Shown here in pieces: positions 45,109-58,042 of a stretch of 64,000 nt of DNA. The notes beneath the pieces were generated by a model, which was not told the origin of the DNA, did no database searches, and saw only the letters and a list, made by a program, of their open reading frames with translations. A program made the position numbers and the translations under genes. This DNA comes from Clostridia bacterium (GTDB lineage: Bacteria > Bacillota > Clostridia > UMGS1883 > UMGS1540). The stretch spans positions 5,982 to 69,981 of the forward strand of contig JAZNQL010000021.1 in NCBI GenBank assembly GCA_045590155.1. The letters run 5' to 3'. How positions within the stretch are numbered: position 1 is the first letter of the stretch; each line of letters starts with the position of its first letter.

Positions 45109-45134
45109 GGGGATAGGAAAAAATGTTTCATAAT

Positions 45135-45377: not shown

Positions 45378-46640
45378 TTAGAATAATATTATAAGAAACT
45401 GTGATACTAAAACAACTGCTATAAGTGCGATAGGATAAGTAGCCGCATAAGCTGCTGCAACATCTTCTGTTCCGGCAACATTAATCAGCGTTCCAAGAGC
45501 AGGTGTACTTGTCATACCGCCCGTAATTGAACCAAGATTATTAAGTAAGCTGAGTTTTAATACATATTTTGCAAACAAATATCCAACTATTAACGGGAAT
45601 ATGGTCATAATAATGCCATAAACAAAATACATCGGGTCAAAGTTTGCTACAAATTCTGCACCGCCCGGGATACCTGCACCAACAAGGAAAAGGATAAGCC
45701 CTAATTCTCTGAAAAGCTTAAGTGTGCTCTGGGTGGGCATAATACTTATAGGGCCGATTTTACCAAAATGGCCGAGAATCAAGCTCATAAGCAGACAGCC
45801 GCCAGTAGTTGTAAGTGAAAAGCATGTTCCTGACAACCCTGCAGAAGAAAGAGGTATTTTTATCTGACCTATAATTGTGCCGAGAATTGCTGCAAGGCAG
45901 AATCCTGCAATGCCCATATGGTCAATTTCAAACAATTTACGCTGTGCTTTTTCATCTTTGTTTGCCGTCTCAATAACAATTTTTGCACGTTCTTCAGCCA
46001 TATTCGCTTTTGCTAATTTAGGTATAATCTGTACAAAAAGCACAACACCAACCACACCGAAAATATAAGCAATACCATGTCCTACTGAAACAAGACCTGT
46101 AAATTCTTCTGCAACAGTTGCTTTAGCTGCAGAAAAAGCAGGCGTTGATGTGAGCGAACCTGAAAGCAAGCCTACAATCATTGCAACAAATCCATCCTGA
46201 CTTTCGATTGTCGCACCATAGCCGAGTATCTCCCCTGCATATATGCAGGCAGCAGCTGAAATACCACCGGCAAGTATTATAATTAACCCTAAAAGCACAT
46301 AAGACTTAAAGTTTTTCTTAAAGTTGCCAAAAAACTTAGGACCTGCTATATAGCCTACCGATGTTACAAAAAGAATAAGACCAAGACTTTCAATAATTGA
46401 AAGCCCACCTGAAAAATCATAGGGTTTTGAGGATGTCGCAAACAAGAGAGCTCCAGTTTCATTTACATTAAAGAACAATGCACCAAAAAGCAAGGCTATA
46501 ATGAATACTCCTGCATCGCCAAGTGATATGCCTTTAATTGTTATTCTTCCAAGAAGATATCCTAAAAGAAGAACACTGAAAACAACAAATAATAGTGTAT
46601 AAATATTATTTATTGAAATAACTCCGTTCAGAAAACTCAT
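45378..46640 (-). CDS. Putative C4-dicarboxylate/aspartate-family transporter (duplicated Asp-Al_Ex / YidE-YbjL-like domain, no TrkA-C)
   Basis: 420 aa, about 10-12 TM helices. Internal duplication, each half carrying a …GISLGDAGVFIIALLFG… / …GLSGTCFSLTTTGGCLL… type motif typical of the AAE/YidE family. It is the last gene of the mdh-fumC-hdr-frd operon. Confidence 0.5.
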   Translation of the reverse strand: MSFLNGVISINNIYTLLFVVFSVLLLGYLLGRITIKGISLGDAGVFIIALLFGALFFNVNETGALLFATSSKPYDFSGGLSIIESLGLILFVTSVGYIAGPKFFGNFKKNFKSYVLLGLIIILAGGISAAACIYAGEILGYGATIESQDGFVAMIVGLLSGSLTSTPAFSAAKATVAEEFTGLVSVGHGIAYIFGVVGVVLFVQIIPKLAKANMAEERAKIVIETANKDEKAQRKLFEIDHMGIAGFCLAAILGTIIGQIKIPLSSAGLSGTCFSLTTTGGCLLMSLILGHFGKIGPISIMPTQSTLKLFRELGLILFLVGAGIPGGAEFVANFDPMYFVYGIIMTIFPLIVGYLFAKYVLKLSLLNNLGSITGGMTSTPALGTLINVAGTEDVAAAYAATYPIALIAVVLVSQFLIILF

Positions 46641-46658
46641 TCTATTACCTCCGTAAAT

Positions 46659-48266
46659 TTAAATTTCGCTCTGTTTTCTTGTGTAATCAGGTAAAAGTTT
46701 TGGCGAAACAGCATTTGTTTCAATTCCTGCATCGCTACGCTCTTTGTCAAACTTCTTTATATGGTCCAAAGTCATAGTTCCTACTTTAGTATTTTTAGCA
46801 CATTCTGCGGCATTTTTACCTGCACTTCTGCCAAAAACAATAATATCAAGTAAAGAGTTACCCATAAGTCTGTTTCTGCCGTGAATACCGCCAACAGCTT
46901 CGCCTGCAACAAAAAGATTTTCAATATTTGTTGTCATACAGTTGTCGTTTATGTCTAATCCGCCGTTCTGGTAGTGAAGGGTAGGATATACCAAAATAGG
47001 TTCACGTCTTATGTCAATACCGTAGTTTGCAAACATACGCATCATAGCAGGTATGCGAGCTTCAATAGTGCCTTCTCCACCTATTTTTTCAATCATGGGA
47101 GTATCAAGCCATACAGCATTTCCGTCGCCTGTTTCTACGCCATTTTCGCGGTCAGAACATTCACGGATAATAGAAGCCGCCGCAACATCTCTTGTTTCAA
47201 GAGGATGCATAAATACTTTACCCTCGCGGTTTATAAGCTTTGCACCGAGAGAACGAACCTTTTCAGTAACAAGAGCACCAAAAATCTGTTGAGGGAAAGC
47301 AACACCGGTGGGATGATATTGCAAAGTTTCTGCATATAAAAGTTTAGCACCTGCTCTGTAACCCAAAACAAGACCATCAGCCGTAGCACCGTAATGGTTT
47401 GAGGTGGGGAATCCCTGGTAGTGCATTCTGCCCGCACCGCCTGTTGCGATAATAACAGTTTTTGCACGTGCCACCATAAGCTCTTTTGTTTCCATATTCA
47501 TTAAAACGGCACCGCAAGCCTTGCCTTTGTCATCTAAAATAAGTTCAATGGCAGAAGTAAAGTCCACAACGGGAATTTGTCTGTTCAAAACTTCATCACG
47601 CAAGGTTCTCATAATTTCAGCACCCGAGTAATCCTTTGCCGCGTGCATTCTCTTTCGAGAAGTACCGCCGCCGTGAGTAGTTATCATAGTGCCATCTTCA
47701 GCCTTGTCAAATTCAACACCAAGCTCATTTAACCATAAAATAGCATCAGGAGCATCGCAAACAAGTTTTGATAAAAGCTCACGCTTTGCAGCAAAATGAC
47801 CGCCGCCAAATGCGTCTAAAAAATGTATAGCAGGGGAATCGTTTGGCTTGTCAGCTGCCTGAATACCGCCTTCGGCCATCATAGTATTTGCGTCGCCCAT
47901 TCGAAGCTTTGTTACAATCATAACATTTGCATTTTTGTTATGAGCTTCAATAGCAGCAGAACAACCTGCGCCGCCACCGCCTATAATAAGAACATCAACA
48001 TCGTATGTAACAGAAGATAAGTCAATATCTTCTGGTGCAATTCTGCTGTGTGCCTGCAATATTTCGCAAAGCTCTTTGGGAACCTTATCTCCCTTGTTAG
48101 GACCTATTTTAAGCTCCGAAAATTCACTTTTCTTATGGTCGGGATGATATGCTGCCAAAAGTTCTTCTTTTTGAGCTGCAGTCATTCTTTCGGGCTCATA
48201 AGCAATGTTTGCTTCTCTGGCTGCTTCAACAGCCTTCAAAGATTCCTGAAATTCTTTTGAATACAT
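46659..48266 (-). CDS. Fumarate reductase / succinate dehydrogenase flavoprotein-subunit homologue (soluble, non-covalent FAD type) with an extra N-terminal domain of about 85 aa
   Basis: 535 aa. FAD dinucleotide fold DVLIIGGGGAGCSAAIEA starts only at about residue 90. No His in the covalent-FAD position (…ANTMMAEGGIQAA…). Substrate/catalytic blocks LQYHPTG, HYQNGG, RNRLMGNSLLD. Confidence 0.7.
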   Translation of the reverse strand: MYSKEFQESLKAVEAAREANIAYEPERMTAAQKEELLAAYHPDHKKSEFSELKIGPNKGDKVPKELCEILQAHSRIAPEDIDLSSVTYDVDVLIIGGGGAGCSAAIEAHNKNANVMIVTKLRMGDANTMMAEGGIQAADKPNDSPAIHFLDAFGGGHFAAKRELLSKLVCDAPDAILWLNELGVEFDKAEDGTMITTHGGGTSRKRMHAAKDYSGAEIMRTLRDEVLNRQIPVVDFTSAIELILDDKGKACGAVLMNMETKELMVARAKTVIIATGGAGRMHYQGFPTSNHYGATADGLVLGYRAGAKLLYAETLQYHPTGVAFPQQIFGALVTEKVRSLGAKLINREGKVFMHPLETRDVAAASIIRECSDRENGVETGDGNAVWLDTPMIEKIGGEGTIEARIPAMMRMFANYGIDIRREPILVYPTLHYQNGGLDINDNCMTTNIENLFVAGEAVGGIHGRNRLMGNSLLDIIVFGRSAGKNAAECAKNTKVGTMTLDHIKKFDKERSDAGIETNAVSPKLLPDYTRKQSEI

Positions 48267-48280
48267 AAAATCATCCTCCC

Positions 48281-48955
48281 TTACTTTTCAATGTCACGGT
48301 TATTATATAAATCTTTTAATTCTTCAACAGGCTTACCCATCAAAGCTTCTATTAAATCGTTAAAATCGCCGTTTTCAATTTCTTTTACACGGTTTTTAAG
48401 ATGCTCGGTTTTAGGAGCTAAATACTTGCCGTTAATTCTTCTTGCAAGCATAGCAACCTGGGGATGAGAAATACCCGCAGGACATCTTGAAGAACAGCAT
48501 CCACACATTACACAGTCAAAAGATTCTTCTGCACACTTTTCAAATTCGCCACGTTGAGCATAAGCAATGTACTGCATAACATCAAGACTCTGCGTACACG
48601 ACTTTGTGCAAGCATTACATCCAACACAGGCATATATTTCGGGGTAAAGCTGCATCATAACCTGTTGAGATACAGAAATCTTTTCAATATCATAAACCTG
48701 TTTTACAAGCGGGAAAAAGGGGAGAGTAGCAATATACATACCGTCTATAACCTTTGTCTGGCAAGCAAGACAGGATTTAAGAGTACTTTCGCCTTTAATG
48801 CGGTAAATAGTGGCACAAGCCCCGCAAAAGCCATTTCTGCAACCGCAACCGCGTACAAGCTGATATCCCGAGTATTCCATAGCACGCATTATTGTTAAAT
48901 TATCCGGCACCTCATACTTTTTGCCGAAAAGATAAATATTTACCATATTTTCCAT
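48281..48955 (-). CDS. Fumarate reductase / succinate dehydrogenase iron-sulfur-subunit homologue
   Basis: 224 aa. N-terminal plant-type [2Fe-2S] cysteines (…RGCGCRNGFCGACA…C…) and two C-terminal cubane motifs (CVGCNACTKSC, CVMCGCCSSRCP). Confidence 0.7.
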   Translation of the reverse strand: MENMVNIYLFGKKYEVPDNLTIMRAMEYSGYQLVRGCGCRNGFCGACATIYRIKGESTLKSCLACQTKVIDGMYIATLPFFPLVKQVYDIEKISVSQQVMMQLYPEIYACVGCNACTKSCTQSLDVMQYIAYAQRGEFEKCAEESFDCVMCGCCSSRCPAGISHPQVAMLARRINGKYLAPKTEHLKNRVKEIENGDFNDLIEALMGKPVEELKDLYNNRDIEK

Positions 48956-48973
48956 AACGTATATTCTCCCTCC

Positions 48974-49807
48974 TTAATATTCGTCCGGAAGCTGATCCAG
49001 TTCATCACAACGGAAAACAGGTCCGTCCTTACAAACATATTTTGCACCTACATTACATCTTCCACATTTTCCTACACCGCACTTCATTCTGAGTTCGAGT
49101 GTAGTATAAACCTGTGTTTTGTCAAACCCTAAAGAGCACAGAGCATCCAAAGTAAATTTAATCATAATTGGAGGTCCGCACAAAACAGCAGTTTTATTTG
49201 TATCAAAGTTCAGCTCTTTTACAAAATTTGGTACAAATCCAACATGACCATCCCAAGCCTCTTCAGCGTTATCAATAGTTAAATGGACTGAAACGCCCGA
49301 GTCTTTAGACCATTCATCAATAATTTCTTTATAATCAAGCAAATCAGCCTTACTTCTTGAACCGTAAACAATATCAATTTTTCCGTATCTGTCACGGTAA
49401 TGACGGCAGTAGTTTATAACAGAACGTAAGGGTGCAAGCCCAACACCGCCTGCAATAAACAAAAGGTCTTTTCCCGCAAAAACATCATCCACAGGGAAAG
49501 GTTTTCCGTAAGGTCCTCTTATTGTAATTTGCTGACCTTCTTCGGCATTATGTAACCAATCGGTTACACAACCGCATTTTTTAATCGAAAACTCCATAAA
49601 TTCTTCATTTGTAGGGGAGGAAGTAATCGAAAACATTGCTTCGCCAACTCCCGGGATTGAAAGCATAGCACACTGACCGGGCCTGTGATTGAAAGCTTTT
49701 TTCCCTTCAGGGGTAACAACCCTGAAGGTCTTTATATCTGGCGTATCAATACGAACATCTGTAATAACACCTATTTTGGGGATTAAAGTTTCTTCATAAT
49801 TACTCAC
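48974..49807 (-). CDS. FlxA/AsrB/HydG/PyrK-family NAD(P)H-binding FAD oxidoreductase subunit with C-terminal [2Fe-2S]
   Basis: 277 aa. Ferredoxin-NADP-reductase-like fold (…FNHRPGQCAMLSIPGVGEAMFSI…, …LFIAGGVGLAPLRS…) and a C-terminal Cys cluster (…CGVGKCGRCNVGAKYVC…). Confidence 0.65.
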   Translation of the reverse strand: MSNYEETLIPKIGVITDVRIDTPDIKTFRVVTPEGKKAFNHRPGQCAMLSIPGVGEAMFSITSSPTNEEFMEFSIKKCGCVTDWLHNAEEGQQITIRGPYGKPFPVDDVFAGKDLLFIAGGVGLAPLRSVINYCRHYRDRYGKIDIVYGSRSKADLLDYKEIIDEWSKDSGVSVHLTIDNAEEAWDGHVGFVPNFVKELNFDTNKTAVLCGPPIMIKFTLDALCSLGFDKTQVYTTLELRMKCGVGKCGRCNVGAKYVCKDGPVFRCDELDQLPDEY

Positions 49808-50843
49808 TTATTTTCCCTCCAAATCTTTTCATTACTTTTGCAATATTCATAGATATAGGACACTTTGCAAGACATCTTCCGCAACCTACGCACGAGAATA
49901 AGCCGTCATTATTTTCGGGATAATAGACTAGCTTGTGCATAAAACGCTGACGGAAACGCTCTTTCTGTGTAAGTCTGTTGTTGCCGTGAGCCATTTTTGT
50001 AAATTCCGAAAACATACAAGAGTCCCAACAACGGAATCTTTTTATTCCGTGGCCTGTATCAAAATCCTTTATGTCATAACATTGACATGTGGGGCAAACA
50101 TAAGTACAGGTTCCGCAACCGAGACAGTTTTCCGAAAGAGAATCCCATAACGGGTCATCAAACAATTCTTTAGTTTTACCACCACCAAAAGCAGTAGTTT
50201 TTAAATCTTTGAGGGGTAACTTTTCAAGACGCTCTTTTATAAGAGTTTTTTGTTTTTCTACAACTTCAGAATCAACCTGCTCAAATAAATCTTCTAAAGA
50301 AGCAAGCAAAGCTTCTCCCTTTTCTGTTTTAGCATCAAAGTAAAAAGCATCTTGTGTTTTAAAGCACTCAATATCTCCCGAAGGGTTTGCCGCATCAATA
50401 CTAAACGTAGTACAAAAGCAGGTTTCTGCGGGCTTTGTGCAGGCAAGAGATATTATTAAAGCGTGCTCACGTCTGTTTTTGTAGTAAGTATCAATGGGAT
50501 CTGCAAGAAAAACTCTGTCTAAAACATCAAAGCTTTTAACATCGCAGGCACGTACACCAAAAATTACAAAATCTTCGTTTTCGCATCTTGAGTCAATAAC
50601 GTCTATTTTCTTACCCTGCATTTTAAATTCCATAAGATTTTCAGTTTGCGGGAAGAAAAAGTCTTTTGCGCTTCTGTTTGTGTTCAAAGCATCCGAAATA
50701 TTTACTCCTTCTTGCCAAAGCTTAAATTCGGCACCGCCTTCAGTGTCGATAGGCAAATACAAAGACATTTTATCGCTGATGGCAGCAAAAAAAGCATCAA
50801 GCTTATCAGATAATAATTTACGCATTACCATCACCTCTTTCAA
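49800..50843 (-). CDS. FlxB/AsrA/HydB-family iron-sulfur subunit
   Basis: 347 aa. Two ferredoxin-like motifs (CLGCGTCTYVCPTCQC and CVGCGRCLAKCP) plus extra Cys. A paralogue of the next gene. Start may be a few codons downstream. Confidence 0.55.
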   Translation of the reverse strand: MKEVMVMRKLLSDKLDAFFAAISDKMSLYLPIDTEGGAEFKLWQEGVNISDALNTNRSAKDFFFPQTENLMEFKMQGKKIDVIDSRCENEDFVIFGVRACDVKSFDVLDRVFLADPIDTYYKNRREHALIISLACTKPAETCFCTTFSIDAANPSGDIECFKTQDAFYFDAKTEKGEALLASLEDLFEQVDSEVVEKQKTLIKERLEKLPLKDLKTTAFGGGKTKELFDDPLWDSLSENCLGCGTCTYVCPTCQCYDIKDFDTGHGIKRFRCWDSCMFSEFTKMAHGNNRLTQKERFRQRFMHKLVYYPENNDGLFSCVGCGRCLAKCPISMNIAKVMKRFGGKISE

Positions 50844-51810
50844 AAGCTTCAGAAGGTTCTAAATCATCTAAAGTATAGTTAATAAGGGGAGAACGGCTTC
50901 CGGCTTCTTCGCCTGCCTGATAATCTCCGTAAAATTCATTTATATCTTTAATGAATTTTCTATTCAATAAATGCAACGGAATTCTCTGCGGGCAAACTCT
51001 TGAACACTGTCCGCAATCTGTGCATCTTCCTGCAACGTGAAAAGCACGTATAATATGGAACATTTTTTCTTCAAAGCTGTTAGATGCGGCTTTGTTTTCC
51101 ACTCCTGATTTAGGGTTATCAAAAACACATTTTTCACAGGTGCAAGCAGGACATACATCACGGCATGCATTGCATCTTATACAACGTGAGAGTTCATTCT
51201 GCCAAAAAGCAAATCGCTCATCAGGAGTCATTTTTTCAAGAGCTTCAACTTCGTCAAAACGCTTGGAGTCAATAACTTCGCCTTCGTCACCTAAAAGCTC
51301 ATCATAAGCTACACATTTTTTTGATTTGCAGTTTTTGCAGCCTTCTAAAAGTACGTCACTGCGTTTAAGTGAAATCTCTCCGTCATAAAGAGTGCTAACA
51401 GTGATGTTTTCTCCATCTGTTTTTACGGAAGTAAAGCTGTCGCATTTTTTCTTTAATAAATCAGCATCAAGCATTCCTTCACAGGGAATACCTACAACGT
51501 ATACCTTTTCTCTGTCAAAACGGTGTTCAGTCAAAAGCTGATTAAAGCTATAAGTATCACAAGGCTTTAAAAATACTAAAACCTTTTTATCGCTTTTTTC
51601 AGTTTCAGATATTAAGTATTTCGAGAAGTTTGCACCGCAAAAATCTCCCCATACAAAATTTTCTTTAAGGTCATCTGTGTCAAAAAACACAGCAGGAGTA
51701 ATATCGTAGCAAAATTCGCCCTTTCTCCAACCCAGAACACGGTCAACGGTGGAGTTTTTCAGTAATTCTTCTGCTTTATTAAGGAGAATTTCTTGTGTTA
51801 TTTTTTGCAT
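50818..51810 (-). CDS. FlxC-like iron-sulfur subunit (AsrA/HydB-family paralogue)
   Basis: 330 aa. CIRCNACRDVCPACTCEKC and CTDCGQCSRVCP ferredoxin-like motifs. N-terminal region with CDTYS/CEG cysteines. Confidence 0.5.
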   Translation of the reverse strand: MQKITQEILLNKAEELLKNSTVDRVLGWRKGEFCYDITPAVFFDTDDLKENFVWGDFCGANFSKYLISETEKSDKKVLVFLKPCDTYSFNQLLTEHRFDREKVYVVGIPCEGMLDADLLKKKCDSFTSVKTDGENITVSTLYDGEISLKRSDVLLEGCKNCKSKKCVAYDELLGDEGEVIDSKRFDEVEALEKMTPDERFAFWQNELSRCIRCNACRDVCPACTCEKCVFDNPKSGVENKAASNSFEEKMFHIIRAFHVAGRCTDCGQCSRVCPQRIPLHLLNRKFIKDINEFYGDYQAGEEAGSRSPLINYTLDDLEPSEAFERGDGNA

Positions 51811-52238: not shown

Positions 52239-54223
52239 ATCGCATCCACCTCCGCTATAATCTGGTCATTTTTAAATCCATTTAAGTCCATTGCGCCCGA
52301 CATACAAGCAACGCAACAACATCCGCAACCCTGGCAAATAGCAGGGTTAACGCTTGCAACACGGCGGGTTTTTGTTTTTCCGCCCGGCATACGAAAATCT
52401 TTGTCAACGTATGAAATAGCACCGTAAGGACAAACCTTTTCACAGGTAGAACAACCGTTACACATCATTTCGTTTGAATGTGCAATACAGGGGTTGCCCA
52501 GCAGCTTATCCTTGCAAAGCAAGCCTATTACCTTTGCGGCAGTAGCACCTGCTTGAGCGACTGTTTCAGGAATATCTTTAGGGCCCTGACATGTGCCTGA
52601 TAAAAAGATACCTGCGGTAGGACTTTCAACCGGACGAAGCTTTGGATGAGCTTCTGTAAAGAAGTCGTTTGTGTCCATTGAAGCTGTAAGCATTGTAGCC
52701 AAACCTCTTGCAGATTCATCGGGTTCTATGGCAGCTGCTAAAATAACCATATCAGCATCAATCTTAAGCTGTTTTCCTTCTATTAAATCGGAAGCCGAAA
52801 CAATAAGCTTATCTCCTTCGGGACAAACCTTTCCGACCATACCTTTTATATAGTGAACGCCATATTCTTCAACAGCACGGCGGTAAAACTCGTCAAAGTT
52901 TTTGCCCGGGGTACGCACATCAATGTAGAAAACATAAACATCAGTATCGGGGTATTTATCACGAGTAAGCATTGCATGCTTTGCAGTATACATACAACAA
53001 ATTTTTGAGCAGTATTCCTTACCCTTTTGAGCACAAGCATCACAACGGGAACCCACACATTGTACAAAAACAAGAGTGTGAGGGTGTTTTCCATCGGAAG
53101 GACGAAGAAGCTTTCCGCCTGTGGGACCAGCCGCATTTGTAAGTCTTTCAAATTCTAAAGATGTAATAACATCCTTTGACTGTGAATAAGCAAATTCGTC
53201 AAACTTATCCATTGATATAGGATTAAAGCCTGTTGCTGCAACAATAGCACCATACTTTTCTTCAACAAATTCGTCTTTTGCCTGATAATCAATAGCACCT
53301 GCAGTACAAAGCTTCGAACAAAGACCGCACTTGCCGCTTTTAAGCATGGTACAGTATTGAGGGTCAATAGTAGCAACCTTTGGTATAGCCTGTGCAAAAG
53401 GAATATAAATAGCTCTTCTGTTATCCATACCAAGATTAAATTCGTTGGGAATATTTTTCTGGGGACATTTTTCGGTACACAAACCGCAACCTGTGCATAT
53501 ATCCTCTTTAACGTATCTTGCTTTACGCTTTATTTTAACATCAAAATTGCCTACAAAGCCTTTAACTTCTTCAACCTCTGAATAAGAGAATATTCTTATA
53601 TTTTCGTGTTGTGCAACATCAACCATTTTTGGAGTTAAAATACAGGCAGCACAGTCAAGAGTAGGGAAGGTTTTGTCAAGCTGCGCCATTTTACCGCCAA
53701 TGGTGGCCTTCTTTTCAACAATATCAACCAAAAAGCCTGCATCAGCAATATCCAAAGCAGTCTGAATACCTGCAATACCGCCGCCTATAACGAGTGCACG
53801 TTTTGTAACAGGAGATTCGCCTGGAATAAGAGGCGCATTAAGATTTACCTTTGCAATGGCAGCTTTGCCTAAAATAATAGCCTTTTCAGTACCTGTCTGG
53901 ATATCCTTATGTACCCAGGAACACTGTTCACGGATATTTGCAATTTCTACCATATAAGAGTTAAGACCTGCTGCTGCAGCAGTTTTTCTAAAGGTCTGCT
54001 CATGCATTCTTGGAGAGCATGAACAAACAACAATACCTGTAAGGTTGTGCTCTTTTACAGCATTTTTAATAAGGTCCTGTCCTGCCTGGGAACACATATA
54101 CTGATATTCTGTCGAAAAAACAACACCTGGCTCGTTTTCCAAAGCCTTGGAAACGGCAGCCACATCAACAGTCGCTGCAATATTAGTACCGCAGTGACAA
54201 ACAAAAACACCAATTCTTTGCAT
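52229..54223 (-). CDS. hdrA: HdrA-type heterodisulfide-reductase subunit A (FAD, multi-FeS; bifurcating flavoprotein homologue)
   Basis: 664 aa. N-terminal Cys-rich MvhD-like segment (…VFVCHCGTNIA…VVCSCSPRMHE…). FAD fold (ALVIGGGIAGIQTALDIADAG). Inserted ferredoxin motifs (CTGCGLCTEKCP; CGLCSKLCTAGA; CNGCSTCEKVCP). C-terminal Cys cluster (CQGCGCCCVACMSGA). Confidence 0.8.
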   Translation of the reverse strand: MQRIGVFVCHCGTNIAATVDVAAVSKALENEPGVVFSTEYQYMCSQAGQDLIKNAVKEHNLTGIVVCSCSPRMHEQTFRKTAAAAGLNSYMVEIANIREQCSWVHKDIQTGTEKAIILGKAAIAKVNLNAPLIPGESPVTKRALVIGGGIAGIQTALDIADAGFLVDIVEKKATIGGKMAQLDKTFPTLDCAACILTPKMVDVAQHENIRIFSYSEVEEVKGFVGNFDVKIKRKARYVKEDICTGCGLCTEKCPQKNIPNEFNLGMDNRRAIYIPFAQAIPKVATIDPQYCTMLKSGKCGLCSKLCTAGAIDYQAKDEFVEEKYGAIVAATGFNPISMDKFDEFAYSQSKDVITSLEFERLTNAAGPTGGKLLRPSDGKHPHTLVFVQCVGSRCDACAQKGKEYCSKICCMYTAKHAMLTRDKYPDTDVYVFYIDVRTPGKNFDEFYRRAVEEYGVHYIKGMVGKVCPEGDKLIVSASDLIEGKQLKIDADMVILAAAIEPDESARGLATMLTASMDTNDFFTEAHPKLRPVESPTAGIFLSGTCQGPKDIPETVAQAGATAAKVIGLLCKDKLLGNPCIAHSNEMMCNGCSTCEKVCPYGAISYVDKDFRMPGGKTKTRRVASVNPAICQGCGCCCVACMSGAMDLNGFKNDQIIAEVDAICR

Positions 54224-54239
54224 TTACCGTTTCCTCCTT

Positions 54240-54629
54240 TTATTTAGTATATTTTCTGAATGCAGTAACAAGTGCCTGCTGCGGAATATCCTCATCAAGC
54301 AACGACGGAATCATATCAGGTGTTAAATGATTTGAATCCTTTTGTCTTATTGTAACAAGACGGATTGCCTCAATAAGCTTTCCCGGTTCAACCCCTGTTG
54401 GACAACGTTCAACACAAGCCATGCACGATAAGCACTTGTATATTGATTCTGATTTCATTAACCTTTCAACATCGGCATTTTCTACCATTGAAACAAACTG
54501 ATGAGGATGAAATTCCATCTCATCATACGAAGGGCAAGTAGCAGAACATTTGCCACATTTCATACATTTTCTTGGGTTAACTCCGCTGATGCGAAGCACA
54601 GTTTCGCGAATACGTTTTATATCAGCCAT
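54240..54629 (-). CDS. hdrC: HdrC-type 2x[4Fe-4S] subunit
   Basis: 129 aa. CMKCGKCSATCP and CLSCMACVERCP motifs. Confidence 0.7.
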   Translation of the reverse strand: MADIKRIRETVLRISGVNPRKCMKCGKCSATCPSYDEMEFHPHQFVSMVENADVERLMKSESIYKCLSCMACVERCPTGVEPGKLIEAIRLVTIRQKDSNHLTPDMIPSLLDEDIPQQALVTAFRKYTK

Positions 54630-55437
54630 TGTTAACCTCCTTTATACCTAAAGCCTCTGCCAGAATTTCTGTAAAGTACATAACAGGAACAGGGCTTTCA
54701 TTTTTTATAAGATTATATTTGCATAAAGGACAAGCAGTAATAATTAAGTCGGCACCATGTCTTGCAGCACTTTCCGAAATGGAAAGGCTTCTTTTTTTAG
54801 CCGCATCTGCATCCTCTAAAGCAATGTATCCGCCACAGCACTCGTTGCGGCAGGGGTATATTGCTGCTTCTCCGCCAAGAGCAGAAATAAAATCCTCAAA
54901 AATAGTTGGATTTTCAGGGTCATCAAACTGTAAAGCTTTGCTTGGTCGAAGCAGTAAACAACCATAATAGGCGGCAATTTTTTTGCCGGTTAAAGGATTT
55001 TTAACCTTTTCTTTTATTTTGTCAAAACCTATTTTGTCGCGCAAAAATTCTAAATAATGAAAAACTTCTGCCTCACCATTGTAGGCTGTAAAATCTTCGT
55101 CCTGTGCCATATAATTGTTAACTGTGTTTGCAAAATCAGGATTTTTCATAGAAACATTGGTACGTTTTACAACATTGTGACAAGCCGAACAAACAGTGAT
55201 TAAAGGTCTGTTTTTTAAATACGAATCACGCAGAACACGCACACTCGAAAGTTTTGTTGCAATTTCGTCCGCAGCTGAGGTAAAAGCACCGCCGCAACAT
55301 TGCCAGTTTTCAATTTCGCAAAGTTCAAACCCAAGAATTTCGGCACATTCTCTTGCATATTTATCGAGCTCTTTTGCCTTGTTTTTCAAGGTACAGCCCG
55401 GGTAATAATTTACTTTCATGTCAAACTCCTTTCGCAA
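54622..55437 (-). CDS. hdrB: HdrB-type subunit with two CCG domains
   Basis: Two Cx(n)CCGx(n)CxxC repeats (YYPGCTL…CCGGAF…CSACHNV and YYGCLLL…CCGGYI…CPLCKYN). The true start may be the Met at 55419 (MKVNYY). Confidence 0.8.
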   Translation of the reverse strand: MRKEFDMKVNYYPGCTLKNKAKELDKYARECAEILGFELCEIENWQCCGGAFTSAADEIATKLSSVRVLRDSYLKNRPLITVCSACHNVVKRTNVSMKNPDFANTVNNYMAQDEDFTAYNGEAEVFHYLEFLRDKIGFDKIKEKVKNPLTGKKIAAYYGCLLLRPSKALQFDDPENPTIFEDFISALGGEAAIYPCRNECCGGYIALEDADAAKKRSLSISESAARHGADLIITACPLCKYNLIKNESPVPVMYFTEILAEALGIKEVNNG

Positions 55438-55450
55438 TAGCTAAAAAGTG

Positions 55451-56827
55451 TTAAACCATTTCTTCGGGATGAAATACTTCATCAAATCTTTCTGCAGTTA
55501 AAAAACCAAGCTCAACACAGGCTTCCTTTAACGATATGTTATCTTTGAAAGCCTTTTTAGCTGTTTTAGCAGCATTTTCGTAACCAATGTAAGGATTGAG
55601 AGCAGTTACAAGCATAAGAGAGTTATGCAGATTATGATGCATCTTTTCTTTGTTGGCAGTAATGCCGCAAGCACATTTGTTGTTAAATGAAACAATGGCT
55701 TCTGCAAGAAGTCTTGCAGATTGCAGGAAGTTGTAAGCTGCAACAGGCATAAATACATTAAGTTCAAAATTTCCTTGAGATGCCGCCATCGAAACTGCAA
55801 CATCATTTCCCATAACCTGAACAGCAACCATTGTTACTGCTTCACACTGTGTAGGATTAACCTTTCCCGGCATAATTGAAGAACCGGGTTCGTTTTCGGG
55901 AATAAAAATTTCGCCTAAACCGTCACGCGGACCCGATGCAAGCCAACGTATGTCGTTAGCAATTTTCATCATATCGCAAGCAGTTGCCTTTATTGCACCA
56001 TGTGCAAAAACAAGCTCGTCTTTTGAAGTTAAAGAGTGGAATTTATTTTCTGCTGTAACAAATGGTTTTCCGGTAAGCTCTGACACTTTCTTTGCAACAA
56101 GAACATCAAAGCCTTTCGGTGCATTAAGACCGGTACCAACAGCAGTGCCGCCGAGTGCAAGTTCATACAAAGGTTTTAAAGATAACTTCAAAAGTTCAAG
56201 ATCTCTTTCAAGACTTGAACGCCAGCCGCTTATTTCCTGGCTGAATTTTATTGGTGTAGCATCCTGCAAGTGAGTACGTCCCGACTTTACAATACCTTCA
56301 TTTTCTTTTTCTAAACGCTTAAAGGTTGTAATTAAAAGCTCAATCGCAGGAATAAGCTTATCTTCAATAGCAATAACCGCCGAAATGTGCATAGCAGTAG
56401 GAAAAGTGTCGTTTGAAGATTGACTCATATTTATATCGTCATTTGGATGGGTTAATGAAGCAGAGGCAATCTGATTTGCACGATTGCAAATAACTTCATT
56501 TGCATTCATGTTTGATTGTGTGCCTGAACCTGTCTGCCATACAACTAAGGGAAAATGTTCATTTAACTTACCGCTTATTACTTCATCACAGGCCGATGAT
56601 ATAGCATCAAGCTTTTCTTTTGTCATTTTAGCGGAATTTAATTCATGGTTAGCTAAAGCGGCAGCCTTTTTTAAGATACCAAAAGCGTGTATAATTTCAC
56701 GGGGCATAGTTTCAATGCCAACGCCTATTTCAAAATTTTCGTGGCTTCGCTGTGTTTGAGCCGCCCACAAAGAATCAGAGGGAACTTTTACCTCTCCCAT
56801 AGAGTCATGTTCAATACGATAATCCAT
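55451..56827 (-). CDS. fumC: Class II fumarate hydratase
   Basis: 458 aa. N-terminus DSMGEVKVPSDSLWAAQTQRSHENF is FumC-like, not AspA-like. Fumarate-lyase signature GSSIMPGKVNPTQCEA. Confidence 0.9.
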   Translation of the reverse strand: MDYRIEHDSMGEVKVPSDSLWAAQTQRSHENFEIGVGIETMPREIIHAFGILKKAAALANHELNSAKMTKEKLDAISSACDEVISGKLNEHFPLVVWQTGSGTQSNMNANEVICNRANQIASASLTHPNDDINMSQSSNDTFPTAMHISAVIAIEDKLIPAIELLITTFKRLEKENEGIVKSGRTHLQDATPIKFSQEISGWRSSLERDLELLKLSLKPLYELALGGTAVGTGLNAPKGFDVLVAKKVSELTGKPFVTAENKFHSLTSKDELVFAHGAIKATACDMMKIANDIRWLASGPRDGLGEIFIPENEPGSSIMPGKVNPTQCEAVTMVAVQVMGNDVAVSMAASQGNFELNVFMPVAAYNFLQSARLLAEAIVSFNNKCACGITANKEKMHHNLHNSLMLVTALNPYIGYENAAKTAKKAFKDNISLKEACVELGFLTAERFDEVFHPEEMV

Positions 56828-56841
56828 ATTAGCCTCCTATA

Positions 56842-57816
56842 TTAAAACTTTGTAACTTTAATAATTTCTTTTAAACAATTTGCACTGTTATGTAATGCAG
56901 CTTGTTCTTTTTCATTTAAGGGCAAAAGAAGCTTATGATGAATAGCTGCATCGCCAACACTGCAGAGAATACTTAAGCATACATCTTCAATTCCGTACTC
57001 TCCGTGCATCATTGAAGATACAGTAAGATTAGTATCCATGCTGCTTAAAAGACATTTACAAATATGACAAACTGAAATAGAAACAGCGTAAAAAGTAGCA
57101 CCCTTTCGTTCTATAACTCTGGCACCTGATTTTCTTACATAGTCTTCAACTTCGTTTATATTTAAATCAGGGATAGGTCTTTCACAGTGTGCAATACTTT
57201 CCGAAAAATCTAAAACGGGGATGTTTGAAAGATTTACAAGGGACCAGGGTATAAATGAAGAATCTCCATGCTCTCCAAGCACATAAGCGTGAACATTTTT
57301 CTGGCTTATCTGATAATATTCTGAGATACGGCTTCTGAGTCTTGCGGTGTCCAAAATAGTTCCCGAACCTAAAATTCTGTTTTCAGGAATACCCGAAAGC
57401 TTGCAAAAAGCATAAGTTAAGATATCAACAGGGTTACTTACAATTATGTATGTAGCGTCGGGGGCGTGACGTGTAATATTTGGAATAATAGATTTTAAAA
57501 CATCAACATTTGTTTGTGTCAGTTCTAAACGTGATTGCCCTGGCTGTCTTGGTACACCTGAAGTAATAACGACAATATTTGAGTTTACAGCATCAGAATA
57601 ATCACCTGCATAAATTGAGCATGCAGTACAAAAAGGCGTACCCTGACGGATGTCAAGCGCCTCGCCACTGGCTTTTTTGCCGTTAACATCAATCATTACA
57701 ATTTCAGAGGCAATACCTAAACAAGCAAGAGTATAGGCAATTGTCGAGCCAACATTTCCGCTTCCTATAATAGTAATTTTGTTCACAAGTATCATCCTTC
57801 CGTTAAAAAATGTCAA
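56842..57816 (-). CDS. mdh: LDH-family 2-hydroxyacid dehydrogenase, predicted malate dehydrogenase (LDH-like MDH)
   Basis: Rossmann ITIIGSGNVGS…, …ITSGVPRQPGQSRLEL… with Arg at the LDH Q102-equivalent position (malate specificity), …IVSNPVD…, catalytic His in …LGEHGDS…. The likely real start is the Met at 57795 (MILVNKITIIG). Confidence 0.75.
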   Translation of the reverse strand: MTFFNGRMILVNKITIIGSGNVGSTIAYTLACLGIASEIVMIDVNGKKASGEALDIRQGTPFCTACSIYAGDYSDAVNSNIVVITSGVPRQPGQSRLELTQTNVDVLKSIIPNITRHAPDATYIIVSNPVDILTYAFCKLSGIPENRILGSGTILDTARLRSRISEYYQISQKNVHAYVLGEHGDSSFIPWSLVNLSNIPVLDFSESIAHCERPIPDLNINEVEDYVRKSGARVIERKGATFYAVSISVCHICKCLLSSMDTNLTVSSMMHGEYGIEDVCLSILCSVGDAAIHHKLLLPLNEKEQAALHNSANCLKEIIKVTKF

Positions 57817-58042
57817 AAAAAATCATTTTAATGTAAGAATTTACAAAGATATGTAAAATTCTATATTTCTCAATTTTATATTATAACATAAATCGACAGA
57901 TTTGTAAAGCTAAAAAGTAGCAAAGAATTAACAAAAAATCATTTTTATTAACATATTATTTTGTAAACATTAGCAAGAGAATAATAATTTTTTAAATTTA
58001 ACGGAAAAAGCTGCTGGGAAAGAGTTATCAACAACTAAAAAT

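What the first reader, a model, noticed from the sequence alone, without database searches (positions are those of the whole stretch)
45378..57816. Twelve-gene operon joining malate dehydrogenase, fumarase, an HdrABC-MvhD-Flx bifurcation module and a soluble fumarate-reductase pair
Twelve co-oriented minus-strand genes with gaps of 8-19 nt or overlaps read mdh(R102)-fumC-hdrB-hdrC-hdrA-mvhD-flxC-like-flxB-like-flxA-like-frdB-like-frdA-like-transporter. A reductive oxaloacetate-to-succinate branch is therefore tied to a complete FlxABCD-HdrABC-type complex. Flx-Hdr complexes are known from sulfate reducers (NADH to the DsrC disulfide), and HdrBC-like TfrB partners a fumarate-reductase flavoprotein in methanogen thiol:fumarate reductase. 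The sequence shows no DsrC or CoM/CoB context here. I infer that fumarate is the high-potential acceptor of an NAD(P)H-dependent, possibly ferredoxin-coupled (flavin-based bifurcating) fumarate reductase. I do not know of a characterised example with this architecture.
Basis: partly seen in the sequence, partly recalled or inferred. Interest (0 to 1): 0.85.

Follow-up and report, generated by a model that had tools for sequence, protein, structure and literature searches.

The report
Succinate operon with Flx-Hdr-linked fumarate reductase
This is a real, strongly conserved 12-gene operon of a gut Clostridia bacterium that turns oxaloacetate into succinate and wires a soluble fumarate reductase to an NADH-oxidising Flx-Hdr module, probably to make reduced ferredoxin as well; the idea was published in 2019 for other bacteria and has not been tested biochemically.

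Summary
Twelve minus-strand genes lie 13-18 nt apart or overlap by 8-26 nt, between one strong promoter-like site and two strong hairpins. The products are an LDH-family dehydrogenase with the Q102R malate switch, class II fumarase, HdrB, HdrC, full-length HdrA, MvhD/FlxD, FlxC-, FlxB- and FlxA-like proteins, a soluble FrdB/FrdA pair and an AAEx transporter.

The order is collinear in all 80 related species loci. The Hdr-Flx core lies upstream of frdA in 56 of 57 informative loci. FrdA keeps every fumarate-site residue and has Asn in place of the covalent-FAD histidine in 88 of 88 loci, so it is a one-way reductase. HdrA matches the bifurcating methanogen HdrA over its full length. HdrB keeps both CCG motifs.

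It is not new. The same architecture and hypothesis were published for Pseudoclostridium thermosuccinogenes (its "succinate operon", 2019-2020) and for tubeworm symbionts (2019, 2024). I found no biochemical characterisation.

This is a new member of a known but unproven kind. At least 591 species genomes encode a relative of its FrdA, and the 80 best are gut or rumen Clostridia.

The parts
57880..57908 (-). Promoter-like site, TTTACA-17-TATAAT with an extended-10 TG. It is the best match in the region and lies in the 226-nt gap upstream of mdh.
   Evidence: 11 of 12 matches, TG present; sequence. This is a consensus match only and has not been shown to function.
56842..57786 (-). mdh: an LDH-family NAD-dependent dehydrogenase with Arg at the substrate-specificity position 102, so a predicted malate dehydrogenase (oxaloacetate to malate). 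The longest ORF runs to 57816. The likely start is the GTG at 57786, after GGAAGGA.
   Evidence: L-LDH model TIGR01771, 328 bits, above its cut-off. (R aligned to the Q of Thermotoga LDH 1A5Z). (R in 49 of 49 aligned orthologues). (314 aa called in L003).
55451..56827 (-). fumC: class II fumarate hydratase (malate to fumarate).
   Evidence: TIGR00979, 708 bits against a cut-off of 665; the aspA equivalog scores 453 against 681. The GRTHLQDATP motif carries the His that my memory assigns to fumarases, conserved in 55 of 55 loci.
54622..55419 (-). hdrB-like: two complete CCG motifs (C15-x31-CC-x34-CxxC and C160-x39-CC-x33-CxxC), the ligand pattern of two non-cubane [4Fe-4S] clusters. Proposed junction between HdrC and FrdB.
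   Evidence: PF02754, two stretches. (best model SdhE of methylmenaquinol:fumarate reductase, 153 bits; HdrB 131 bits). (methanogen HdrB chains, E = 2e-30, alignment starting at M7). The motifs were read from the translation.
54240..54629 (-). hdrC-like: ferredoxin-like subunit with 2x[4Fe-4S].
   Evidence: Fer4_17/Fer4_8; HdrC model TIGR03290, 54 bits, below its cut-off.
52229..54223 (-). hdrA: full-length FAD and Fe-S subunit, including the inserted and the C-terminal ferredoxin domains. Proposed bifurcating flavin.
   Evidence: 678 bits, residues 3-662 aligned to 5-649 of 5ODC_A, with the Cys motifs conserved in the alignment. (HdrA2 model, 775 bits).
51798..52238 (-). mvhD/flxD: [2Fe-2S] adaptor subunit.
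   Evidence: PF02662 FlpD, 183 bits, full length.
50818..51810 (-). flxC-like: Fe-S protein with 2x[4Fe-4S] and a weak FrhB_C/AsrA-like N-terminal part.
   Evidence: (only a weak, ferredoxin-region similarity to FlxB-like, E = 2e-5).
49800..50843 (-). flxB-like: homologue of the sulfhydrogenase beta subunit (Fer4_22).
   Evidence: ShyB 187 bits, HydB 172 bits. (9NEZ_B, E = 2e-47).
48974..49807 (-). flxA-like: FAD plus NAD(P)H-binding plus [2Fe-2S] subunit. Proposed site of NAD(P)H oxidation.
   Evidence: FAD_binding_6, NAD_binding_1, DHODB_Fe-S_bind. (9NEZ_C, sulfhydrogenase gamma, E = 9e-59).
48281..48955 (-). frdB-like: Fe-S subunit of the soluble fumarate reductase, with a [2Fe-2S] site (C39, C44, C47, C65) and two full CxxCxxCxxxC motifs.
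   Evidence: all 12 Cys invariant across 9 sequences down to 29% identity. (the profile hits the E. coli FrdB N-terminal domain, E = 5e-8). (natural FrdB-FrdA fusion P0122). It lies next to frdA in every locus that has room for it except distant L091, which carries an unassigned 94-aa ORF there; in L089 the neighbouring 509-aa ORF has no Pfam hit.
46659..48266 (-). frdA-like: soluble fumarate reductase flavoprotein with non-covalent FAD, a conserved ~87-aa N-terminal extension and no SdhA-type C-terminal domain.
   Evidence: TfrA model 350 bits; PF00890 241 bits; no PF02910. (alignment to E. coli FrdA). (N at the covalent-His site and H232, R287, H355, R390 in 88 of 88 loci). (AF2 pLDDT 88; top fold match 1KF6_A, E = 4e-33).
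45378..46640 (-). AAEx-family permease with two Asp-Al_Ex repeats and no central TrkA_C domain. Predicted succinate exporter.
   Evidence: PF06826, 182 bits, two stretches. The family includes a succinate exporter (PMC9527358). It is present downstream of frdA in 47 of 67 informative loci.
45067..45175 (-). Two strong hairpins downstream of the last gene: a 13-bp GC-rich stem at 45145-45175, and an A-tract/stem/U-tract hairpin at 45067-45107 that could terminate transcription in both directions, shared with the convergent SLT gene.
   Evidence: MFE -56.6 kcal/mol, z = -9.9, 0 of 200 shuffles as stable; sequence.

Best explanation
The region is a single 'succinate operon' of an uncultured gut Clostridia bacterium. 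The pathway runs as follows.

1. The R102 LDH-family enzyme reduces oxaloacetate to malate.
2. FumC dehydrates malate to fumarate.
3. A soluble two-subunit fumarate reductase reduces fumarate to succinate. FrdA carries non-covalent FAD. FrdB carries a [2Fe-2S] and two [4Fe-4S] clusters.
4. The AAEx permease exports succinate.

FrdAB has no quinone-binding anchor. I infer that it takes its electrons from the seven-subunit Flx-Hdr module encoded between fumC and frdB:

- FlxA oxidises NAD(P)H.
- FlxB, FlxC and MvhD pass electrons to the FAD of HdrA.
- That FAD bifurcates. One electron goes uphill through HdrA's ferredoxin domains to ferredoxin.
- The other goes downhill through HdrC, HdrB and FrdB to the FrdA FAD and fumarate.

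The net reaction would be 2 NADH + fumarate + oxidised ferredoxin -> 2 NAD+ + succinate + reduced ferredoxin.

What is shown: gene identities, conserved catalytic and cluster-binding residues, and near-invariant synteny. What is inferred: the physical complex, the direct HdrB-to-FrdB electron path without a free thiol, NADH rather than NADPH as donor, and ferredoxin reduction.
For: - Operon anatomy: 12 co-oriented genes with junctions from -26 to +18 nt. One strong promoter-like site lies upstream and strong hairpins lie downstream.
- Synteny: the order is collinear in 80 of 80 related species loci. The hdrBCA-mvhD-flxCBA-frdB core is present in 56 of 57 informative loci, fumC in 52 of 55 and mdh in 46 of 53.
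- FrdA: its fold and its sequence are FrdA-like. H232, R287, H355 and R390 are kept in 88 of 88 loci and T244 in 87 of 88. Asn replaces the covalent-FAD histidine in 88 of 88. From established work on E. coli FrdA His44 mutants, this fits fumarate reduction and not succinate oxidation.
- FrdB: all 12 Cys are invariant, and a natural FrdB-FrdA fusion exists.
- HdrA matches the structurally characterised bifurcating HdrA over its full length.
- HdrB has both CCG motifs. Its best curated model is SdhE, the CCG partner of a fumarate reductase.
- Methanogen TfrB is itself a FrdB plus HdrB-like fusion. The window's FrdB, HdrC and HdrB hit TfrB model positions 19-101, 133-220 and 373-471.
- A 54%-identical FrdA sits in korABCD-like/hdrA-mvhD-hdrC-hdrB-frdB-frdA with no flx genes on the contig. 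Hdr-FrdAB is therefore the conserved pairing, and the input module varies.
- Thermodynamics from textbook potentials (NADH -320 mV, fumarate +30 mV, ferredoxin about -450 mV): the coupled reaction is exergonic.
- Literature: the P. thermosuccinogenes operon with the same layout is co-regulated, about 4-fold up at low CO2, and high H2 abolishes succinate formation there (PMC7282089). The Endoriftia cluster is co-expressed (PMC11636981).
Against: - No biochemical data exist for any member, according to 8 full-text searches of an open-access library only.
- FrdAB relatives also occur without Hdr or Flx nearby: L053 within the close clade, and L085, L088, L090 and L091 among distant relatives. L086 has a NuoF-like gene instead. 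FrdAB can therefore use other donors.
- HdrB keeps an intact disulfide-reducing cluster site. That is unnecessary if it only relays electrons, and it leaves room for a thiol/disulfide mediator.
- In Endoriftia, tfrAB expression departed from the rest of the cluster (PMC11636981).
- Full-length HdrA architecture does not prove bifurcation.
- NAD(P)H specificity was not determined.
Confidence: 0.55

Rival explanations
1. The complex is a non-bifurcating NAD(P)H:fumarate oxidoreductase. The Flx-Hdr proteins serve only as an electron wire from NAD(P)H to FrdAB, and no ferredoxin is reduced.
For: Soluble NADH-dependent fumarate reductases with extra subunits exist: the Hydrogenobacter five-subunit enzyme cited in PMC13147460, and the FrdBA plus NuoF-like arrangement in L086. 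Models of Blautia metabolism simply assume an NADH-dependent enzyme (PMC12773636).
Against: Seven extra subunits are a costly wire, and they include a full-length HdrA with both ferredoxin domains. About 350 mV would be wasted. In P. thermosuccinogenes, high H2 abolished succinate formation, which the authors took as fitting ferredoxin coupling (PMC7282089).
Confidence: 0.15
2. The coupling is mediated by a thiol, as in methanogens (Hdr plus Tfr). Flx-Hdr bifurcates electrons to ferredoxin and to an unidentified disulfide at HdrB. The resulting thiols, free or bound, deliver electrons to fumarate.
For: HdrB keeps both complete CCG motifs of the disulfide-reducing site. Flx-Hdr of sulfate reducers is proposed to reduce the DsrC disulfide (PMC4759654, citing Ramos 2015). 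Mitchell et al. list a DsrC-like intermediary as one option (PMC11636981).
Against: FrdB here has no CCG domain of its own, so FrdAB alone has no known thiol-oxidising site, unlike TfrB. Neither the operon nor the 64-kb window encodes a DsrC/TusE-like or thiol-carrier gene. The junctions of 18 nt or less leave no room for a missed small ORF.
Confidence: 0.15
3. There are two independent enzymes in one operon. FrdAB is reduced by ferredoxin or another soluble donor. Flx-Hdr is co-expressed only to rebalance NADH and ferredoxin, with some other high-potential acceptor.
For: FrdAB occurs alone in L053, L085, L088, L090 and L091. FrdB's two [4Fe-4S] clusters could accept electrons from ferredoxin.
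Against: Linkage is near-invariant (56 of 57 loci) and the order is fixed (80 of 80) across species whose FrdA identity falls to 72%. Hdr and FrdBA are again adjacent in the 54%-identical L084 lineage. No alternative acceptor for HdrB is encoded.
Confidence: 0.1
4. The FrdA-like protein acts on another substrate. One case would be an L-aspartate oxidase, with the AAEx protein as an aspartate:alanine exchanger and the lyase as an aspartase.
For: The NadB models score well (276 bits). The lyase scores 509 bits on an aspartate ammonia-lyase subfamily model whose cut-off is 510. AAEx is named after an aspartate:alanine antiporter.
Against: The fumC equivalog model is passed (708 against 665), while the aspA equivalog fails (453 against 681). 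By my recollection the GRTHLQDATP His marks fumarases. TfrA is the best FrdA model and NadB is below its cut-off (276 against 453). NadB has no Fe-S partner, whereas FrdB is always adjacent and is once fused to FrdA. At the position that aligns with FrdA Phe in the RRFGG motif (Glu121 of E. coli NadB by my recollection), the window has His and the family varies. The R102 MDH fits a malate route.
Confidence: 0.03

Closest known systems
'Succinate operon' of Pseudoclostridium thermosuccinogenes (CDQ83_RS03365-RS03315; Koendjbiharie et al. 2020, PMC7282089; Koendjbiharie & van Kranenburg 2019 preprint, doi 10.20944/preprints201912.0288.v1, which I could not read)
   Same: As described in the paper, the gene content and order are the same: fumarate hydratase, seven Flx-Hdr genes, two fumarate reductase genes, then a putative succinate transporter. 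The proposed function is the same (NADH to fumarate plus ferredoxin). It is also a Clostridia host.
   Different: The window has an R102 LDH-family mdh as first gene, which is not listed in that operon. The host is a mesophilic gut lineage rather than a thermophile. I could not fetch the P. thermosuccinogenes sequences, so orthology rests on the published description and not on an alignment.
korABCD-tfrAB-flxABCD-hdrABC rTCA cluster of Ca. Endoriftia and Thioflavicoccus mobilis (Rubin-Blum 2019, PMC6315080; Mitchell 2024, PMC11636981)
   Same: A soluble TfrA-like/FrdB-like pair is co-located with HdrABC, MvhD and Flx, and it was proposed to receive bifurcated electrons from NADH. The metagenomic locus L084 found here (OFOR-hdrA-mvhD-hdrC-hdrB-frdB-frdA, FrdA 54% identical) has this type of layout.
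   Different: That cluster serves autotrophic CO2 fixation in Gammaproteobacteria and includes 2-oxoglutarate:ferredoxin oxidoreductase. The window's operon is fermentative, with mdh, fumC and an exporter and no OFOR.
FlxABCD-HdrABC of Desulfovibrio vulgaris (Ramos et al. 2015, as described in PMC4759654 and PMC7282089)
   Same: The seven-subunit composition is the same: an NAD(P)H-binding FlxA, Fe-S proteins FlxB and FlxC, the MvhD-like FlxD, and HdrA, HdrB and HdrC.
   Different: The gene order is inverted (hdrBC-hdrA-flxDCBA). The proposed acceptor is fumarate through FrdAB rather than the DsrC disulfide. No dsr genes lie in the window.
Methanogen thiol:fumarate reductase TfrAB together with Mvh/Fdh-HdrABC (structures 5ODC, 7BKB, 8RVU)
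   Same: FrdA is closest to the TfrA model. TfrB is a FrdB plus HdrB-like fusion, so it shows the same partnership. HdrA is a full-length match to the bifurcating HdrA (678 bits). Summed, Hdr plus Tfr in methanogens gives the same net chemistry, with donor electrons going to fumarate and ferredoxin.
   Different: Methanogens link the two enzymes through free CoM-SH/CoB-SH and use H2 or formate as donor. Here the donor is NAD(P)H through Flx, FrdB lacks CCG domains, and no CoM/CoB context exists.
Soluble NADH-dependent five-subunit fumarate reductase of Hydrogenobacter thermophilus (Miura 2008, cited in PMC13147460)
   Same: It is a soluble, quinone-independent fumarate reductase fed by NADH through accessory subunits.
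   Different: Its accessory subunits differ and its genes are scattered. It has not been reported to bifurcate. The nearest analogue seen here is L086 (frdB-frdA plus a NuoF-like gene).

Membership tests
Soluble (TfrA-type) fumarate reductase flavoprotein | FAD_binding_2 fold with the capping domain of FrdA/SdhA | tested here: met
   PF00890, 241 bits. AF2 model pLDDT 88; top Foldseek match E. coli FrdA 1KF6_A, E = 4e-33, TM 0.70.
Soluble (TfrA-type) fumarate reductase flavoprotein | Dicarboxylate-binding and proton-transfer residues (E. coli FrdA H232, T244, R287, H355, R390) | tested here: met
   All are aligned and conserved in the window. In related loci they are kept in 88 of 88, with T244 in 87 of 88.
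Soluble (TfrA-type) fumarate reductase flavoprotein | No covalent-FAD histidine (E. coli FrdA His44) | tested here: met
   Asn lies at the aligned position in the window and in 88 of 88 loci. The consequence, non-covalent FAD, is inferred.
Soluble (TfrA-type) fumarate reductase flavoprotein | Reaches the curated score of the TfrA equivalog model | tested here: not met
   NF004900 scores 350 bits against a cut-off of 718. The protein is a relative of archaeal TfrA, not an equivalog.
Soluble (TfrA-type) fumarate reductase flavoprotein | Fumarate reductase activity | not testable with these tools
   Needs an enzyme assay.
FrdB/SdhB-type iron-sulfur subunit | N-terminal [2Fe-2S] domain with CxxxxCxxC...C, followed by a ferredoxin-like two-cluster domain | tested here: met
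   C39, C44, C47, C65 and two CxxCxxCxxxC motifs are invariant. The profile matches the E. coli FrdB N-terminal domain, E = 5e-8. The second motif has all four Cys, so a [4Fe-4S] cluster is predicted where classical SdhB has [3Fe-4S].
FrdB/SdhB-type iron-sulfur subunit | Obligate partnership with the flavoprotein | tested here: met
   It is adjacent to frdA in all 80 close loci with enough sequence and in L084, L086, L088 and L090. It is fused to FrdA in P0122/L085.
HdrABC heterodisulfide-reductase module (bifurcating type) | HdrA with the N-terminal cluster domain, the thioredoxin-reductase-like FAD domain, and the inserted and C-terminal ferredoxin domains | tested here: met
   Residues 3-662 align to 5-649 of 5ODC_A, 678 bits, with the Cys motifs conserved in the alignment. 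By contrast the non-bifurcating sHdrA 6TJR_A matches only residues 327-567.
HdrABC heterodisulfide-reductase module (bifurcating type) | HdrB with two CCG motifs (Cx31-39CCx33-36CxxC) | tested here: met
   Both motifs are complete. E = 2e-30 to methanogen HdrB chains.
HdrABC heterodisulfide-reductase module (bifurcating type) | Reaches the curated equivalog scores for CoB-CoM heterodisulfide reductase subunits | tested here: not met
   HdrA scores 775 against 1100, HdrB 131 against 345 and HdrC 54 against 160. These are homologues, not the methanogen enzyme.
HdrABC heterodisulfide-reductase module (bifurcating type) | Flavin-based bifurcation to ferredoxin; a disulfide substrate | not testable with these tools
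   Needs biochemistry. No candidate disulfide carrier is encoded in the window.
FlxABCD NADH dehydrogenase module | FlxA with FAD, NAD(P)H and [2Fe-2S] domains, homologous to sulfhydrogenase gamma | tested here: met
   PF00970, PF00175 and PF10418. 9NEZ_C, E = 9e-59.
FlxABCD NADH dehydrogenase module | Two Fe-S subunits (FlxB, FlxC) and an MvhD-like FlxD encoded next to hdrABC | tested here: met
   FlxB-like matches 9NEZ_B, E = 2e-47. FlxC-like has 2x[4Fe-4S] motifs. MvhD scores 183 bits. All lie contiguous with hdrA.
FlxABCD NADH dehydrogenase module | Sequence orthology to D. vulgaris DVU2399-2404 | not tested
   No reference sequences or curated Flx models were available in the tools.
Malate dehydrogenase (LDH-like) | Arg at specificity position 102 (Gln in L-LDH) | tested here: met
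   Direct alignment to LDH 1A5Z. R is kept in 49 of 49 orthologues.
Malate dehydrogenase (LDH-like) | Reaches the curated MDH model scores | tested here: not met
   TIGR01763 scores 216 against 352 and NF004863 scores 270 against 283. The L-LDH model TIGR01771 is passed instead (328 against 304). Overall it is an LDH-clade sequence with the MDH switch residue, so activity needs an assay.
Class II fumarase | Passes the curated fumC equivalog | tested here: met
   TIGR00979, 708 bits against 665. FumaraseC_C domain.
AAEx transporter (succinate exporter subgroup) | Two Asp-Al_Ex repeats | tested here: met
   PF06826, 182 bits, two stretches.
AAEx transporter (succinate exporter subgroup) | Succinate as substrate | not testable with these tools
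   This is inferred from context, and from the family containing a succinate exporter (PMC9527358).

The most novel reading that the evidence does not exclude
The Flx-Hdr-FrdAB proteins form one soluble supercomplex in which HdrB's two non-cubane clusters act as a thiol-free junction between HdrC and FrdB. The complex performs flavin-based bifurcation (2 NADH -> fumarate + ferredoxin). It is the main quinone-independent, energy-conserving route to succinate in hundreds of gut and rumen Clostridia species, which would make it a large and so far unaccounted term in gut succinate and ferredoxin/H2 budgets.
Probability: 0.4. Interest if true: 0.75.

Novelty: new member of a known kind. Interest (0 to 1): 0.5.

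Why it matters
If the mechanism holds, fumarate joins crotonyl-CoA, caffeyl-CoA and heterodisulfides as a high-potential acceptor that drives ferredoxin reduction. Quinone-free fermenters could then conserve energy from fumarate reduction, through Rnf or hydrogenases.

Relatives of this FrdA are very widespread. More than 8000 protein clusters match, and some of them hold 500-1400 member sequences. At least 591 GTDB species genomes encode a relative, and the 80 best are all gut or rumen Clostridia. The complex could therefore shape succinate cross-feeding and H2 output in animal guts. It is also relevant to bio-succinate production.

The survey names one cultured host, Yeguia hominis NSJ-40 (L029), in which the published but untested hypothesis could be tested.

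Tried and rejected
- The exact FrdA sequence is not on record in the contig index. I used close relatives (98% and 84% identity) instead.
- The 2019 preprint by Koendjbiharie and van Kranenburg is not in the library, so its content is known only through PMC7282089.
- I could not fetch P. thermosuccinogenes or D. vulgaris sequences. The single genome scan returned only the 80 closest loci, all at least 72% identical. Direct orthology to those reference systems is therefore untested.
- The Rfam scan of the whole window found nothing, so there is no riboswitch or leader upstream of mdh.
- The simple terminator scan missed the downstream hairpins. Its three internal minus-strand hits lie inside coding sequence and are weak. 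Folding revealed the real hairpins.
- FlxC and FlxB are not close paralogues; only their ferredoxin regions align, E = 2e-5.
- L-aspartate oxidase/aspartase reading: rejected on model scores, the Fe-S partner and signature residues (see the rival explanations).
- Succinate oxidation (reverse direction): rejected because the covalent-FAD histidine is absent in 88 of 88 loci.
- Horizontal transfer: the operon's GC is 0.38-0.42 against 0.35-0.37 in the flanks. That is a small difference and I did not take it as evidence of transfer.
- A complex (multimer) structure prediction was not possible with the tools.

Full report
**Observation.** Taking the longest ORFs, the junctions from mdh to the permease are +14, +13, -8, +16, -10, -13, -26, -8, +18, +14 and +18 nt.

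The best sigma-70-like match in the region is TTTACA-17-TATAAT with an extended-10 TG, at 57908-57880. It lies in the 226-nt gap that separates the cluster from an upstream ABC-F gene. Downstream of the last gene two very stable hairpins follow, at 45145-45175 and 45067-45107. The second is an A-tract/stem/U-tract hairpin that could terminate transcription in both directions, shared with the convergent lytic-transglycosylase gene (z = -9.9). The three terminator-like hits inside the cluster on the minus strand are weak and lie in coding sequence. The anatomy is that of one transcription unit, although co-transcription was not measured.

Two start codons are probably later than the longest ORF. 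For mdh it is the GTG at 57786, after GGAAGGA, which gives 314 aa as called in L003. For hdrB it is the ATG at 55419, where the PDB alignments begin.

**Gene identities.**

*The carbon branch.*
- The first gene belongs to the LDH/MDH family and passes the curated L-LDH model (TIGR01771, 328 bits against 304). All its best solved relatives are L-LDHs. In the direct alignment to Thermotoga LDH it has Arg where LDHs have the specificity residue Gln102: GVPRQPGQSR against GVPQKPGETR. This Arg is kept in 49 of 49 aligned orthologues.
- The second gene passes the class II fumarase equivalog (708 against 665). It fails the aspartase equivalog (453 against 681).

*The Hdr subunits.*
- HdrB has two complete CCG motifs. 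Its best curated model is SdhE, the CCG subunit of methylmenaquinol:fumarate reductase (153 bits); HdrB scores 131 bits.
- HdrC is a short protein with two [4Fe-4S] clusters.
- HdrA aligns over residues 3-662 with residues 5-649 of the structurally characterised bifurcating HdrA (5ODC_A, 678 bits). The cysteine motifs of the inserted and C-terminal ferredoxin domains are present.
- MvhD is a full-length FlpD domain.

*The Flx subunits.*
- FlxB-like and FlxA-like are clear homologues of Pyrococcus sulfhydrogenase I beta and gamma (9NEZ, E = 2e-47 and 9e-59). This matches the published description of the Flx proteins.
- FlxC-like is a further Fe-S protein.

**The fumarate-reductase pair.**
- FrdA-like is closest to archaeal TfrA (350 bits, below the cut-off). 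It has no SdhA C-terminal domain and carries a conserved ~87-residue N-terminal extension.
- An AlphaFold model (pLDDT 88) matches E. coli FrdA best (E = 4e-33).
- In the alignment to E. coli FrdA, the residues H232, T244, R287, H355 and R390 are conserved, and the covalent-FAD His44 is Asn. Across 88 loci the counts are 88 of 88 for all of these except T244, which is 87 of 88. This is the pattern of a one-way fumarate reductase.
- FrdB-like resembles SdhB/FrdB only weakly as a single sequence. A nine-sequence alignment shows twelve invariant cysteines: C39, C44, C47, C65 and two CxxCxxCxxxC motifs. Its profile finds the N-terminal domain of E. coli FrdB (E = 5e-8).
- A natural FrdB-FrdA fusion exists (P0122, 727 aa).
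- The last gene is a 420-aa AAEx permease with two Asp-Al_Ex repeats. That family includes a succinate exporter (PMC9527358).

**Conservation.**
- FrdA has more than 8000 relatives in the protein collection. The top 120 are at least 84% identical, and some clusters hold 500-1400 member sequences.
- The scan of one genome per species found at least 591 species with a relative. The 80 best (72-87% identity) are all gut or rumen Clostridia. They include Acutalibacteraceae, Oscillospiraceae, Congzhengia, Faecousia and the cultured Yeguia hominis NSJ-40.
- A tblastn survey with all twelve window proteins showed the same order in 80 of 80 loci. The complete hdrB-hdrC-hdrA-mvhD-flxC-flxB-flxA-frdB block lies upstream of frdA in 56 of 57 loci that have enough sequence. 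fumC is present in 52 of 55, mdh in 46 of 53 and the permease in 47 of 67.
- The single exception, L053, has frdBA with a CitMHS transporter next to pyr genes.
- Variants L001 and L002 carry an S9 peptidase gene and a metallo-beta-lactamase-fold gene inserted in the cluster.

**More distant relatives show modularity.**
- A 54%-identical FrdA lies in a four-subunit 2-oxoacid:ferredoxin oxidoreductase-hdrA-mvhD-hdrC-hdrB-frdB-frdA cluster, with no flx gene on the 10-kb contig.
- A 47%-identical FrdA is followed by a NuoF-like NADH-binding subunit.
- Others stand alone.
- So FrdAB is a soluble catalytic module that has been joined to different electron-input modules. Hdr-FrdAB is a recurrent pairing.

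**Mechanism.** FrdAB has no membrane anchor. FrdB has no CCG domain, so it has no known site for quinol or thiol oxidation.

Methanogen TfrB is in effect FrdB fused to an HdrB-like CCG domain. The window's FrdB, HdrC and HdrB hit TfrB model positions 19-101, 133-220 and 373-471. Type E enzymes likewise pair SdhB with the CCG protein SdhE.

I therefore propose that FrdB docks on HdrB or HdrC, and that the electron paths are:
- NAD(P)H -> FlxA -> FlxB/FlxC -> MvhD -> HdrA FAD, where the pair of electrons is split;
- one electron -> HdrA ferredoxin domains -> ferredoxin;
- the other electron -> HdrC -> HdrB -> FrdB -> FrdA FAD -> fumarate.

With textbook potentials (NADH -320 mV, fumarate/succinate about +30 mV, ferredoxin about -450 mV), the reaction 2 NADH + fumarate + oxidised ferredoxin -> 2 NAD+ + succinate + reduced ferredoxin is exergonic.

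The shown steps are gene identity, cofactor-binding motifs and linkage. The complex, the thiol-free junction, the nucleotide specificity and ferredoxin reduction are all inferred.

The intact CCG site of HdrB keeps a thiol/disulfide mediator possible. The stand-alone FrdAB loci keep an independent, for example ferredoxin-dependent, FrdAB possible. No DsrC/TusE, CoM/CoB or other thiol-carrier gene is present in the 64-kb window.

**Comparison with what is known.**
- Koendjbiharie et al. (PMC7282089) describe the 'succinate operon' of Pseudoclostridium thermosuccinogenes. It comprises fumarate hydratase (CDQ83_RS03365), Flx-Hdr (RS03360-30), fumarate reductase (RS03325-20) and a putative succinate transporter (RS03315). 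It is up about 4-fold at low CO2.
[quoted passage not shown] They also note that high H2 abolishes succinate formation.
- Rubin-Blum et al. (PMC6315080) proposed independently that korABCD and tfrAB, interspersed with flxABCD-hdrABC in tubeworm symbionts and Thioflavicoccus, form a complex.
- Mitchell et al. (PMC11636981) showed co-expression, with tfrAB a partial exception.
- A 2026 survey restates the idea (PMC13147460).
- A 2026 study of Blautia luti measured methyl-viologen:fumarate reductase activity and simply assumed an NADH-dependent enzyme (PMC12773636).
- In eight full-text searches I found no purification, activity or structure of such a complex. The library is open-access only, so this absence is not proof.

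**Verdict.** It coincides with a hypothesis published in 2019 and is still unproven.

The window adds three things:
- a 12-gene version that begins with an LDH-clade R102 dehydrogenase;
- evidence that the cluster is almost invariant across dozens of gut and rumen Clostridia species, and that relatives of its FrdA occur in at least 591 species genomes;
- a residue-level case for a one-way, non-covalent-FAD FrdA.

I rate it a new member of a known (predicted) kind, of moderate interest. The open question of whether fumarate can drive flavin-based bifurcation is worthwhile and directly testable, but this finding did not open it.

Noticed in passing
window 18676-30022, minus strand: A compact phage-like block of about 11 kb. 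It holds a terminase large subunit (21585-22925), a Mu gpT-like major capsid (22931-23857), an SU10-type portal (24549-26072), an N-acetylmuramoyl-L-alanine amidase (26713-27414), an HTH_23 protein (29567-30022) and several ORFs with no Pfam hit. It is too small for a full tailed phage, so it may be a defective prophage, a GTA-like element or a satellite.
   Followed up: no
window 56842-57786: The operon's 'mdh' passes NCBI's curated L-lactate dehydrogenase model, and all its best PDB relatives are LDHs. Yet it carries the Q102R malate switch in 49 of 49 orthologues. Annotation pipelines would probably name it L-LDH. It looks like a natural counterpart of the engineered Q102R LDH-to-MDH conversion.
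   Followed up: partly
window 48006-48266 (FrdA residues 1-87): FrdA has a conserved ~87-residue N-terminal extension with near-invariant L36, H41, P42, G55, N57 and G59. It is predicted with pLDDT of 80 or more and is mostly helical. It has no Pfam match, and it is present in distant relatives that lack Hdr. The usual SdhA C-terminal domain is missing. Its function is unknown.
   Followed up: partly
L001 998-1720 and 8448-9293; L002 4012-4845: In one lineage the operon carries two inserted genes: an S9 peptidase between fumC and hdrB, and a metallo-beta-lactamase-fold gene (PF12706, also hitting the Anti-Pycsar Apyc1 family PF23023) between flxA and frdB. L053 also has a Lactamase_B gene just after frdA.
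   Followed up: no
L053 8079-11605: In a Congzhengia MAG the frdB-frdA pair (78-80% identical) stands without hdr, flx, mdh or fumC within 9 kb upstream. It follows a CitMHS transporter, ptsI and a pyrimidine-synthesis gene set (pyrD, pyrF, pyrE, pyrB, pyrI). It is the only exception among 57 informative loci.
   Followed up: partly
L084 811-9771: A metagenomic contig has the order four-subunit 2-oxoacid:ferredoxin oxidoreductase, hdrA, mvhD, hdrC, hdrB, frdB, frdA (FrdA 54% identical), with no flx genes on the contig. The layout is like the published tubeworm-symbiont rTCA cluster.
   Followed up: partly
L086 and L087 9366-12891; L085 5250-7433: Other input modules exist for the same FrdAB family. 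In a proteobacterial-looking context with cytochrome c, DsrE and rhodanese genes, frdB-frdA is followed by a NuoF-like (Complex1_51K) NADH-binding subunit. Elsewhere there is a single-polypeptide FrdB-FrdA fusion of 727 aa.
   Followed up: no
L063 and L074 (record titles): Two of the 80 syntenic loci come from records labelled 'uncultured Treponema sp.' and 'Bacteroides uniformis'. Their proteins are 74-79% identical to the Clostridia ones and the gene order is the same. This points to mis-binned contigs or recent transfer.
   Followed up: no
window 36059-39463: Two adjacent large proteins each have three S-layer-homology (SLH) repeats near the C-terminus. They are cell-surface proteins of the host.
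   Followed up: no
window 1-64000: No Rfam family reaches its gathering score anywhere in the 64 kb. There are no tRNA, riboswitch or leader matches.
   Followed up: yes
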